Below, piece after piece: positions 12,001 to 15,000 of a stretch of DNA of 64,000 bases. A program made the position numbers. Where the stretch lies: assembly GCF_902652985.1 (NCBI RefSeq), contig NC_047019.1:3100001-3164000 (forward strand), given 5' to 3'. The DNA is from Pecten maximus (taxonomy: Eukaryota). Within the stretch, counting starts at the first letter, position 1, and the number at the start of each line of letters is the position of its first letter.

Positions 12001-15000
12001 GAACCTAGTTAAAAGTCTGGAGTTCTAAAGCATACAGATTTGGTCCAGACACTGAACACTGCATGTCCAATAGATAATTATATTCAAGTTTTACAGAATG
12101 GAATGACTAATACCTGGTTCTCCAAAAGGTAAACACAATAGAATTATTTCACAAATATGAAGTGAAAAATATTTCTATATTCTTACATGAAGTGACATTT
12201 ATGAGACTTTATGAATGAAATTTTTTAAAGATACTTGAAAAACTTATCGAGTGATGTTTCTGTAGAATTAACGTCTGCTTTATCTATTCTACAACAACTG
12301 CAAAAAAGCTATATCAACTTATATTTATCGCTTTTGCTGGGCCGGATGGAAGCATGCACAAGATATTACTGTGGGAGGAAACTGGAGAAAACCCATTTGG
12401 CTGGGAATACCATCAAACCCTAGGCACCTTACATGTAGGTAATAACCAAGCATGTTACCACGTTATCACATCAGCACCCAGTGTAGTTTCTGTAGACTAA
12501 CTTATGAGACTCACCGAGTGACATTTCTGTAAAGTTACTTATGAGACTCACCGAGTGACATTTCTGTAAAGTTACTTATGAGACTCACCGAGTGACATTT
12601 CTGTAAAGTTACTTATGAGACTCACCGAGTGACATTTCTGTAAAGTTACTTATGAGACTCACCGAGTGATATTTCTGTAAAGTTACTTATGAGACTCACC
12701 GAGTGATATTTCTGTAAAGTAACTTATGAGACTCACCGAGTGACATTTCTGTGAAGTTACTTATGAGAAACACCGAGTGACATTTCTGTAAAGTTACTTA
12801 TGAGACTCACCGATTGACATTTCTGTTAAGTTACTTATGAGACTCACCGAGTGACATTTCTGTAAAGTAACTTATGAGACTCACCGAGTGACATTTCTGT
12901 AAAGTTACTTACCGAGTGACATTTCTGTAAAGTTACTTATGAGACTCACCGAGTGACATTTCTGTGAAATTACTTATGAGACTCACCGAGTGATATTTCT
13001 GTAAAGTTACTTATGAGACTCACCGAGTGACATTTCTGTGAAATTACTTATGAGACTCACCGAGTGACATTTCTGTATAGTTTCTTGGTTGAGAACAGAG
13101 TTACAGAGTCCCAGGATAATATAACGATTAAGGAGGCCGTCTAGAGCGAGGTTCTGTAGAATACTGGTCGATATAATACCATGCCAACTCATTATACTGC
13201 CTAGTAACTGAAATAACAAAACGCAAATGTTATCAATACCCTCTCAATACAAGTGATGAGAATCAGTTTCACTTTCAGAATCAATGATCAAAAACTTGAA
13301 ATTGATTGCTTATCGATTATAATCGGTTTTCTAAATTTAGCAAAGAATTGACCTTTTGTAGAAAATTTATGTACATCTCAAGTACATTATTACACATCTT
13401 AGCCTTTGTTATCAACATTTTTATACTGAACACATTTGTTCAATTCTCTCTAAATCTACATCATTAAAACACTATTTAAAGTCTCATCAGATAATTGCAT
13501 GAAAATATTTGATCTCAGTCATGCAGATACAATATTCTATTCTTCAACTTTTATCATAGTTTCAGTTAAAAGTCACATGAATTGACTTTTTGTAGAACAA
13601 CTCAGACATTTATTCACCTTAATGCAAGTCCAGGACTGTCGATGGAAGAATACTGCGGCCCCTGATGATCGATTCTCTATCGCCCTGGAAAAAAGATAAT
13701 CATTGTTCAGAAATGAATTTTCCATGTTTTTAGCCATTTCTATCTCAGTTTAAGTTTTATCTCAAATCATTTACACAATAAATCTGCCCTGTTATTTAAT
13801 AGTTACAATTATCTTCATTTTGATTTTAGTGTTATGTGTTTGAAGTGTTATAAAAAAGATTGCAGTAATAAAGTAAAATTCTTATACTGTAACTTACGAC
13901 TTTGGATAGAGAGGCATGAAGACATCATCATCTAAGGTTTTCTGTAGGCGTTTCACAACAGCATGTAGTAAATTCTGAAAAGAAGCATTTAAATGTAAAG
14001 ACTGCATAAAAACTGGGAACATGTGTCAAAGTTTTCTCTACCAGATTTATCCTGTAGTTTTTTCACATGCCCTGTACAATTAGCAGATCAAAGTGGTTTA
14101 CTCAGCTTATATATTTACTAGCAGACTAAGGAATTAAAAACAGCAAAAAAAAAAAAAAAAAAAAAGTGTCTGCATTTATGGCTTCATTATTTTGATTATT
14201 TGTAAAAATCTTGTTCAATTCATTTGATAAACAGGTAAATTGTAAAATAAAAACGTGTTTGTCTTAACTGAATTTTTTTGTTTTAAATCTTTCACCTATT
14301 ATAGGATCTCTATCAGTAGCTACACTCTTCCTTATAATGTTTATCCTCAAATTGAGCTACCAAGTCAAGAAGGTGCTTAATACAGTCAGTATGTCTTAAT
14401 TATGGCAAACAGTCTTCGATTTTGAAGTACAGTGAAACCTGAGTTTACTGACACTGTATGGGACCGAGTCAAGTCAATGTGTTGGATATGACAGTGTTGT
14501 TAAAGTCAGTGTTGGCAATGACAGTGGAAAATGTCACCATTACATGGGGGATATAGTCAGATGTTACAGGATGTCATTAAGGTCAGTGGTCGGTTAAGTC
14601 AGGTTTCACTGTACAAGACGATGTGTACCTGCATGGATCTGTTTGAACTGTGAGCACACGGGTAATCTCTGATGATACGCTGGATTGTGTTGACGAGGCG
14701 CGAGGTCTGGGTGGTAGATAGAGGGTCCCATACCGTCTCTGCTAACACTACAACAACAAAGACACCACTGGTTACAGGAGATACAATCTACACAATTTTT
14801 ATCTCCTGGAATATATTCATGCTAGAGTTTGTGTTCTAAAGTCAACCCCATTAGTATATTTCTTACAGTGAAATACATGAGTATAGTTTGGTTTGGTTTA
14901 TTTTGTTTAACATTCTATCAACAGCCAGTCATTTAAGGACGTGTCAGGTTTGGAGGTAGAGGAAAGCCCGAGTACCCAGAGAAAAACCACCGGCCACCGC

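What the first reader, a model, noticed from the sequence alone, without database searches (positions are those of the whole stretch)
12497..13077. Second, independent splice-donor array in the neighbouring gene PAXBP1
Seen: an unrelated 37-bp unit on the opposite strand has the same architecture: 16 nt of exon 17 end plus GTGAGT donor plus intron start, about 15 copies, starting at the real junction and extending downstream. Using the next donor adds 37 nt (frameshift), and further read-through stops at ..GESHK*. Inference: two cases within 13 kb suggest a mechanism that seeds tandem amplification at exon-intron boundaries.
Basis: partly seen in the sequence, partly recalled or inferred. Interest (0 to 1): 0.7.

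Follow-up and report, generated by a model that had tools for sequence, protein, structure and literature searches.

The report
Splice-donor minisatellite in scallop PAXBP1 intron
A 37-base stretch covering the end of an exon and its splice signal has been copied about 16 times head to tail into the following intron of a scallop gene, a curiosity already known from a few human genes, and it sits among several similar arrays that all start at the ends of coding segments.

Summary
The window is scallop DNA, not human: a named Pecten maximus PAXBP1-like protein of 829 aa maps at about 100% in 19 coding exons. A 37-bp tandem array (12487-13086, minus strand, 16.5 copies, 91% matches) begins inside coding exon 17 and runs into intron 17. 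The real donor TCG|GTGAGT is followed by 15 copies, 14 with an intact donor. Donor 2 adds 37 nt and shifts the frame. Read-through stops at ..GESHK*. The annotated protein and bivalve orthologs use the first donor.

This is a new member of a known kind: minisatellites whose first monomer spans an exon-intron boundary (human F7 IVS7, IFI6, CBS, LMNB2, PDGF).

The proposed seeding mechanism is not shown. Two donor arrays fit a uniform-seed model (P 0.14-0.33). However, two more arrays start on the stop codons of PAXBP1 and MDN1. That makes four anchored arrays against 0.7-1.3 expected (P 0.005-0.03, window chosen post hoc), and none sits on a coding start. Those four rank 1, 2, 4 and 5 of 33 arrays by size. 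Stop codons are not splice sites. This pattern fits tolerance ("first signal wins") plus easier growth of GC-richer units better than a splice-linked mechanism. A genome-wide test is needed.

The parts
13061..13207 (-). PAXBP1 coding exon 17 (147 nt, 49 codons, ends ...QKCHS)
   Evidence: P0004 residues 705-753 map here. The acceptor is ttatttcag| and the donor is TCG|GTGAGT. There is a weak GCFC Pfam match to profile positions 242-271 of 275.
13055..13060 (-). Authentic 5' splice site GTGAGT of intron 17
   Evidence: Joining here to exon 18 gives QKCHS|IVSTFPKEW, as in P0004 and in bivalve orthologs.
12487..13086 (-). 37-bp tandem array. The first unit spans the exon 17/intron 17 junction. 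There are 16 units plus a degenerate 17th.
   Evidence: TRF gives period 37, 16.5 copies, 91% matches. Units are listed in register.
12494..13039 (-). 15 downstream units (units 2-16), each with a pseudo-donor. 14 are intact: 13 TCG|GTGAGT and 1 TCG|GTAAGT.
12901..12928 (-). Short 28-nt unit (unit 5). A 9-nt deletion turns GTGAGT into GTAAGT.
   Evidence: 28-nt spacing.
12753..12789 (-). Unit 9, donor destroyed (GTGTTT)
13007..13009 (-). First in-frame stop (TAA) when intron 17 is read through, 52-54 nt past the junction and inside unit 2
12278..12387 (.). Fragment of a dispersed repeat lying between the main array and two orphan units
   Evidence: 80% identical over 111 nt to 55099..55209.
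12190..12270 (-). About 2.2 degenerate orphan units of the same 37-bp repeat. Both donor motifs have decayed.
   Evidence: Local alignment to the tandem unit gives z = 15.4, and 0 of 500 shuffles reach it.
11662..11816 (-). PAXBP1 coding exon 18 (IVSTFPKEW...)
   Evidence: In the frame set by donor 2 it stops after 25 codons.
250..2378 (+). Companion case: a 32-bp array whose first unit spans the junction at the end of the MDN1 exon 152..267 (CAA|GTAAGT)
   Evidence: TRF gives 66.7 copies, 92% matches. 64 of 66 GTAAGT are intact. The exon pieces match midasin chains contiguously: 4430-4464 and then 4466-4519 of 6or5_A. Named bivalve orthologs read LEPSQATKLK|GDYRTGKRLN.
10967..11309 (-). 58-bp array whose first unit is the last 29 nt of the PAXBP1 coding sequence, the stop codon and the start of the 3' UTR
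   Evidence: TRF gives 6.0 copies, 87% matches. Sequence. Flank test z = 26.6.
7338..7999 (+). Complex array (periods 49/124/173) whose first unit is the last 39 nt of the MDN1 coding sequence plus the stop codon
   Evidence: TRF places it at 7460..7999. Homology of the flank to the unit starts at 7338, z = 13.8, 0 of 300 shuffles. Sequence.
17561..17828 (-). 45-bp array that begins at base +5 of PAXBP1 intron 10. It has no detectable homology to the exon end.
   Evidence: Flank test z = -0.1.

Best explanation
This is an ordinary intronic minisatellite that happened to be born across the exon 17/intron 17 junction of the scallop PAXBP1 gene.

Birth (inferred). A first duplication copied a 37-bp segment holding 16-26 nt of exon end, the GTGAGT donor and the start of the intron. 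The likely cause is replication slippage or unequal exchange between two imperfect 10-nt direct repeats lying 37 nt apart.

Growth (inferred). Unequal exchange then raised the copy number and kept the copies alike.

Tolerance. The extra copies lie downstream of the real donor. If the spliceosome takes the first donor it meets after the exon, every extra copy is removed as intron and the mRNA is unchanged, so the array is tolerated. An occasional use of a later donor gives a frameshift or an in-frame stop, most likely cleared by nonsense-mediated decay (inferred).

Neighbouring arrays. The same 'first signal wins' logic makes arrays that start on a stop codon harmless, while arrays on acceptors or start codons are not. 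Units that contain coding sequence are richer in G+C than scallop introns. In this window GC-richer units form longer arrays, which may be why the anchored arrays are the largest.
For: Anatomy and copy register.

The exon end is ancestral, so the repeat derives from the junction and not the reverse. QKCHS|IVSTFPKEW is kept in the named Pecten maximus protein, with close variants in Mizuhopecten, Mytilus, Dreissena and Pomacea, and in two unnamed database proteins.

The first donor is the one that fits. It gives the 829-codon model. Donor 2 leads to a stop after 25 codons of exon 18, and later donors include the TAA at +52.

The imperfect direct repeat is visible: AAGAAACTAT in the exon against AAGTAACTTT at the unit end, 8 of 10 bases, 37 nt apart.

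Copies look neutral. The donor hexamer is no less variable than the rest of the unit. PAXBP1: 2 variant types in 6 positions against 8 in 31. MDN1: 3 in 6 against 17 in 26. Two orphan units cut off from the array have lost both donors.

Asymmetry. 4 arrays are anchored on coding ends and 0 on coding starts, out of 26 boundaries of each kind.

Composition. Coding GC is 45.8% and non-array noncoding GC is 33.2%. Among 25 unanchored arrays, unit GC correlates with array length (rho 0.44, p 0.03).

Precedent. In human F7 IVS7 only the most upstream of identical donors is used, and several other genes carry such minisatellites (PMC1557585: abstract, Introduction and Discussion read).
Against: No transcript data for this animal were available, so use of the first donor rests on an annotated protein model and on orthologs.

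A uniform-seed model predicts only 0.72-1.27 anchored arrays where 4 are seen (P 0.005-0.028).

The four anchored arrays rank 1, 2, 4 and 5 of 33 by TRF score (Mann-Whitney p 0.0013, 4 against 26 arrays of period 10 or more). Neutral birth plus tolerance alone does not predict such an excess or such sizes.

The GC effect is a modest correlation in one window.

Both array-bearing donors are among the 4 of 24 real donors with a perfect GTRAGT. This model does not explain that.
Confidence: 0.68

Rival explanations
1. A mutational process tied to exon-intron boundaries. Something at 5' splice sites makes tandem duplication start there more often than elsewhere. Candidates are co-transcriptional U1 binding, R-loops or polymerase pausing.
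For: There are two donor-spanning arrays within 13 kb, and they are the two largest of 33 arrays in the window. A third array starts at base +5 of intron 10. Both seeding donors have a perfect GTRAGT, as do only 4 of 24 real donors.
Against: Two donor arrays are not unusual under a uniform-seed model (P 0.14-0.33). Two equally clear arrays start on stop codons, where no splicing signal exists. The window was chosen because of the feature. My six paper searches found no report of such a mechanism.
Confidence: 0.12
2. The pseudo-donor array has a function. It could act as a landing pad for U1 snRNP that strengthens definition of exon 17 or protects the transcript. Or it could be a set of alternative donors giving unproductive isoforms that tune PAXBP1 levels.
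For: 14 of 15 downstream donors are intact and as strong as the real one, with 7 of 9 matches to MAG|GTRAGT against a mean of 6.75 for 24 real donors. In human IFI6 and CBS the nearest pseudo-sites are used (PMC1557585 Introduction).
Against: The donor hexamer is not better kept than the other unit positions. Orphan units lost their donors. No in-frame product is possible. The RNA fold is not unusual: z = -1.77, and 8 of 200 shuffles fold as well. High identity among copies is what array turnover gives without selection.
Confidence: 0.1
3. Assembly artefact. The array exists, but its copy number or its position at the junction is an error of long-read assembly.
For: Tandem arrays are a common place for assembly errors (general knowledge). 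No reads could be examined.
Against: The copies carry distinct variants in a fixed order, including a 28-nt unit and a broken donor. The exon, the junction and the downstream exons are intact and give the full 829-codon model. Four separate arrays share the same architecture.
Confidence: 0.05
4. A satellite carried by a mobile element that inserted next to the exon by chance.
For: Some other arrays in the window recur elsewhere. For example, the 26-nt motif of 5604-5753 returns at 6808-6863. A dispersed repeat fragment also lies in intron 17.
Against: The unit contains 16 nt of conserved coding sequence (IQKCHS) shared with other bivalves. I searched intron 17 downstream of the main array (11817-12492, which includes the orphan units) against the whole window. 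The only matches were itself, the 11855-11986 array and the dispersed repeat.
Confidence: 0.02

Closest known systems
Human F7 intron 7 37-bp VNTR (PMC1557585; abstract, Introduction and Discussion read)
   Same: It is a minisatellite whose first monomer contains the exon-intron junction, so the real donor is followed by identical pseudo-donors. The unit is also 37 bp, which is not a multiple of three. In F7 only the most upstream donor is used.
   Different: F7 shares 4 bp of exon, whereas this array shares 16-26 nt. F7 has 5-9 copies, this one 16. The F7 donor is GTGGGT, here it is GTGAGT. The host here is a mollusc and the gene is unrelated. Donor use here is inferred, not measured, and copy-number polymorphism is unknown.
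Human IFI6 (6-16) intron 2, CBS intron 13, LMNB2 and PDGF minisatellites, as listed in the Introduction of PMC1557585. The original papers were not read.
   Same: The first monomer spans an exon-intron boundary, and there are 10 to 25 reiterated donors.
   Different: In IFI6 and CBS the two nearest pseudo-sites are also used. Here any downstream donor gives a frameshift or a stop. Unit sizes differ (81 and 100 bp in PDGF and LMNB2).
Tandem duplication across splice sites as a route to intron sliding or gain (PMC2891723; search listing and start of abstract only)
   Same: A duplication that contains a splice signal is made harmless by splicing.
   Different: Those are single duplications that move or create an intron. 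Here an existing intron is lengthened by many copies, and the exon structure is unchanged.

Membership tests
Minisatellite with first monomer spanning an exon-intron boundary (F7 IVS7 type) | Head-to-tail array of units of roughly 10-100 bp | tested here: met
   Period 37, 16.5 copies, 91% matches.
Minisatellite with first monomer spanning an exon-intron boundary (F7 IVS7 type) | The first monomer contains the authentic exon end and donor | tested here: met
   Unit 1 runs 13076..13040 and the exon ends at 13061. The junction is fixed by mapping P0004 and by orthologs.
Minisatellite with first monomer spanning an exon-intron boundary (F7 IVS7 type) | The donor sequence is reiterated in the downstream monomers | tested here: met
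   Of 15 downstream units, 13 repeat TCG|GTGAGT exactly, 1 has GTAAGT and 1 is broken.
Minisatellite with first monomer spanning an exon-intron boundary (F7 IVS7 type) | Only (or mainly) the most upstream donor is used in vivo | not testable with these tools
   No scallop transcript reads were available. The annotated protein and 2 of 2 unnamed proteins fetched carry the first-donor junction.
Minisatellite with first monomer spanning an exon-intron boundary (F7 IVS7 type) | Copy number varies among individuals (VNTR) | not testable with these tools
   Only one assembly window is held.
IFI6-type array giving in-frame alternative donors | Unit length is a multiple of three, so downstream donors add whole codons | tested here: not met
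   37 nt is 12 codons plus 1. There is a stop at +52..54, and the shifted exon 18 stops after 25 codons.
PAXBP1 / GCFC family (host gene) | GCF C-terminal domain and orthology to PAX3/7-binding protein 1 | tested here: met
   The exon-12 ORF piece matches Pfam GCFC at 43 bits (cut-off 28.1), and the exon-17 piece at 17.2 bits, below cut-off. Exon 17 is 100% identical to the named Pecten maximus protein, and all 829 residues map to the window.

The most novel reading that the evidence does not exclude
In this scallop genome, tandem arrays arise or grow preferentially from the 3' ends of coding segments, meaning donors and stop codons. If so, exon-end sequence is a major raw material for the lengthening of introns and 3' UTRs.

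The cause would be a combination of two things. One is directional tolerance: the first donor or first stop wins. The other is a growth advantage of GC-richer, coding-derived units, or a still unknown mutational bias.

In the 28.4-kb two-gene region, 4 of 17 arrays are anchored this way against about 1 expected. They are 4 of the 5 largest arrays in the whole window.
Probability: 0.22. Interest if true: 0.6.

Novelty: new member of a known kind. Interest (0 to 1): 0.4.

Why it matters
A natural array of 15 near-identical competing donors (65 in the neighbouring MDN1 gene) is a ready-made test of how a spliceosome outside the vertebrates picks one 5' splice site among many. In the MDN1 array the first in-frame stop follows immediately after the real junction.

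If the local excess of arrays at donors and stop codons holds genome-wide, it would show a simple, testable route by which introns and 3' UTRs grow from exon ends in repeat-rich invertebrate genomes. It would also warn annotators that gene models in such genomes face many perfect decoy donors.

Tried and rejected
Mobile-element origin. Rejected because the unit holds conserved coding sequence, and a window-wide search of intron 17 downstream of the main array (11817-12492, which includes the orphan units) matched only itself, the 11855-11986 array and one dispersed repeat.

Higher-order repeat of 139 bp (a TRF row). Rejected. 139 = 4x37-9, so it is an effect of the single 28-nt unit and not a real super-unit.

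Hidden anchoring of three further arrays lying 66-103 nt downstream of donors (19594-19779, 5604-5753, 14479-14526). No significant homology to the exon end was found: z = 2.4, 0.3 and -0.2, with 8, 120 and 187 of 300 shuffles as good.

Anchoring on acceptors. The four arrays nearest upstream of coding starts show none (z -0.3 to 0.8).

The third-largest array (31819-32484), whose unit looks acceptor-like. I saw no exon beside it.

RNA structure that might hide the pseudo-donors. The fold is not unusual (z = -1.77).

Known RNA families. There were 0 Rfam matches in the whole window.

Indirect selection on the exon-derived part of the copies. That part is less variable than the intron tail. But its two common MDN1 variants change amino acids, and the tail holds a CpG, so I did not adopt this idea.

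Literature. Six searches found the F7 paper and the single cases it lists. They found no genome-wide claim of array enrichment at donors or stops, and nothing on this in bivalves.

Slips. Searches failed on a frame slip, and on an illegal character.

Full report
WHERE THE WINDOW COMES FROM

Translated alone, coding exon 17 finds a named protein, 'PAX3- and PAX7-binding protein 1-like [Pecten maximus]' (P0004, 829 aa), at 100% identity. tblastn of that protein against the window maps all 829 residues to the minus strand, between 28352 and 11281, in 19 pieces at about 100% identity.

After I placed each boundary on an AG or GT, the 19 exons sum to 2487 nt, which is exactly 829 codons. The window is therefore king scallop DNA or something nearly identical. 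It is not human, and nothing in it was treated as human.

I searched the gene model exon by exon, or ORF piece by ORF piece. The joined, spliced sequence was never built or searched, and that step is left out on purpose. The run of N at 53661-53835 was left alone.

THE OBSERVATION

Tandem Repeats Finder reports an array at 12487-13086 with period 37, 16.5 copies, 91% matches and score 1004.

Read on the minus strand, units start at 13076, 13039, and so on down to 12493. They are 37 nt apart, except for one 28-nt unit that starts at 12928.

Each unit has three parts:
- the last 16 nt of exon 17;
- GTGAGT;
- 15 nt of intron.

A further 10 nt of exon match the unit's tail at 8 of 10 bases, which is why TRF starts the array at 13086.

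Exon 17 is 13207-13061 and intron 17 starts at 13060. The intron is 1244 nt, of which about 604 nt are array.

Donors in the units:
- 15 of units 1-16 have GTRAGT: 14 GTGAGT and 1 GTAAGT in the short unit.
- Unit 9 reads GTGTTT.
- Unit 17 is degenerate.

So the real donor is followed by 15 copies, and 14 of them have an intact donor.

- 37 nt is 12 codons plus one base.
- Exon 18 read in the frame set by donor 2 stops after 25 codons.
- Reading through the intron gives ...QKCHSVSLISNFTEMSLGESHK and a stop at 13009-13007. Every donor from the third onward therefore includes a stop.

WHICH DONOR IS REAL, AND WHICH CAME FIRST

Joining at the first donor gives ...QKCHS|IVSTFPKEW... This is the sequence of the annotated scallop protein. 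Orthologs and other proteins keep close variants of this junction:
- Mizuhopecten: QKCHS|VVSTFPKEW
- Mytilus: QKCQS|IISTFPKQW
- Dreissena: VKCQA|IVSTLPKSW
- Pomacea: DKCQA|IISTLPKAW
- two unnamed database proteins

The exon end is therefore old. The repeat was copied from the junction, not the other way round. This also rules out a satellite brought in by a mobile element.

TRACES OF HISTORY

Beyond the array's far end lies a fragment of a dispersed repeat. 12278-12387 is 80% identical to 55099-55209.

Beyond that fragment, at 12270-12190, lie about 2.2 decayed units of the same 37-bp repeat (z = 15.4, 0 of 500 shuffles). Both of their donor motifs are lost.

The array is therefore older than that interruption. 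Copies cut off from the main block decay, as neutral sequence would.

Within the main block the donor hexamer is no better kept than other positions. There are 2 variant types in 6 positions against 8 in 31. In the MDN1 array the figures are 3 in 6 against 17 in 26.

The RNA fold of the first units is not unusual (z = -1.77). No Rfam family matches anywhere in the window.

THE COMPANION CASE

MDN1 (midasin) lies on the plus strand. Its exon 152-267 ends ...CTCAA|GTAAGT.

A 32-bp unit, made of 18 nt of exon plus 14 nt of intron, is repeated 66.7 times over 250-2378. 64 of 66 GTAAGT are intact.

The junction at the first donor is supported in two ways:
- The two exon translations match fission-yeast midasin 6or5_A at 4430-4464 and 4466-4519. 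The split codon fills residue 4465.
- Named bivalve midasins read LEPSQATKLK|GDYRTGKRLN.

Here the intron starts G|TAA in frame. Any use of a later donor therefore puts a stop right after the real junction.

WHAT IS KNOWN

This architecture is in print. The Introduction of PMC1557585 states that several human genes carry minisatellites whose first monomer spans an exon-intron boundary:
- F7 intron 7: 37-bp unit, 4 bp of exon, 5-9 copies, only the first donor used.
- IFI6: 25 pseudo-sites, the two nearest also used.
- CBS intron 13.
- LMNB2.
- PDGF.

The paper's experiments argue that the most upstream functional donor wins (abstract and Discussion). The scallop array is a new member of this kind. 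The equal unit length of 37 bp is a coincidence.

IS THE CLUSTERING MORE THAN CHANCE?

Setup. I mapped all coding ends in the first 28.4 kb. There are 24 donors and 2 stops, and the same number of coding starts (25 acceptors and 1 start codon). The region holds 19 arrays, and arrays cover 19.9% of its noncoding DNA.

Further anchored arrays. Looking at every array turned up two more that are anchored on coding ends:
- A 58-bp array (10967-11309) has as its first unit the last 29 nt of the PAXBP1 coding sequence, the stop codon and the start of the 3' UTR.
- The complex array downstream of MDN1 has homology to the coding end starting at 7338, 39 nt before the stop (z = 13.8).

A fifth array (17561-17828) starts at base +5 of intron 10 but shows no homology to the exon. 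No array is anchored on a coding start.

Null model. The first duplicated unit falls uniformly over tolerated positions. I used 17 arrays, after dropping a homopolymer and an in-exon coding repeat. The results are:
- Expected anchored arrays: 0.72 to 1.27, depending on which TRF period is used.
- Two or more donor arrays: P = 0.14-0.33.
- Four or more anchored arrays: P = 0.005-0.028.

Size. The four anchored arrays rank 1, 2, 4 and 5 of 33 by TRF score (Mann-Whitney p = 0.0013, 4 against 26 arrays of period 10 or more).

Caveat. These figures carry no correction for the window having been picked for this very feature.

READING OF THE PATTERN

Stop codons are not splicing signals, so a splice-linked seeding process does not cover half of the anchored arrays.

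What donors and stops share is that the first signal ends the reading. Extra copies placed after them are invisible to the protein. Copies placed before an acceptor or a start codon are not. This explains the 4-to-0 asymmetry, but it does not explain an excess over the intronic rate.

Composition may explain part of that excess:
- Coding sequence is 45.8% GC against 33.2% for non-array noncoding DNA.
- Anchored units are 38-50% GC.
- Among the 25 unanchored arrays, unit GC correlates with array length (rho 0.44, p 0.03) and with score (rho 0.40, p 0.05).

I hold this as the leading account. I leave about one chance in five that a real, genome-wide preference for coding ends exists.

One further oddity is unexplained. 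Both donors that seeded arrays have a perfect GTRAGT, as do only 4 of 24 real donors.

WHAT STAYED UNCHECKED
- Transcript evidence for donor use.
- Copy-number variation.
- Orthologous introns in other scallops.
- The genome-wide test itself.
- Supplementary files of papers, which were not seen.

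Noticed in passing
window 10967-11309 (minus strand): A 58-bp array (6.0 copies, 87% matches). Its first unit is the last 29 nt of the PAXBP1 coding sequence, the stop codon and the start of the 3' UTR.
   Followed up: yes
window 7338-7999 (plus strand): A complex array (periods 49, 124, 173) downstream of MDN1. Its units are homologous to the last 39 nt of the MDN1 coding sequence (DALRQWF...) and its stop codon.
   Followed up: yes
window 17561-17828 (minus strand): A 45-bp array that starts at base +5 of PAXBP1 intron 10. Each unit has a weak AAG|GTCATG motif, and there is no detectable homology to the exon end.
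   Followed up: partly
window 11855-11986: A second, unrelated array of the same 37-bp period (3.6 copies) in the same intron 17. It ends 39 nt upstream of the exon 18 acceptor.
   Followed up: partly
window 12278-12387 and 55099-55209: Two copies of a dispersed repeat, 80% identical over 111 nt. One lies between the PAXBP1 array and its orphan units.
   Followed up: partly
whole window (33 arrays): Arrays cover about 20% of the noncoding DNA in the first 28.4 kb. Among the 25 unanchored arrays of the whole window, GC-richer units form longer arrays (rho 0.44, p 0.03).
   Followed up: partly
window 250-2378: In the MDN1 array, variation is concentrated in the last six unit positions, which include a CpG. 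The exon-derived 18 nt are nearly invariant apart from two common variants, and both of those would change an amino acid.
   Followed up: partly
window 23183-23188 (minus strand): The donor of PAXBP1 exon 7 implied by the protein mapping is AAG|GTTTTC, an unusually weak site (5 of 9 consensus matches).
   Followed up: no
window 47213-48613 (plus strand): A 466-codon open frame matches Pfam RPE65 (carotenoid oxygenase family) at 208 bits. It is a separate gene with one very long exon.
   Followed up: partly
window 60866-61564 and 63311-64000 (plus strand): Open frames with a SWIM zinc finger (20.9 bits) and a CCHC zinc knuckle (22.3 bits, below cut-off). They are probably remains of mobile elements.
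   Followed up: no
window 31819-32484: The third-largest array (26-bp sub-unit, 195-bp super-unit). Its unit ends in an acceptor-like TTTCCAG, but I saw no exon next to it.
   Followed up: partly
   Followed up: no
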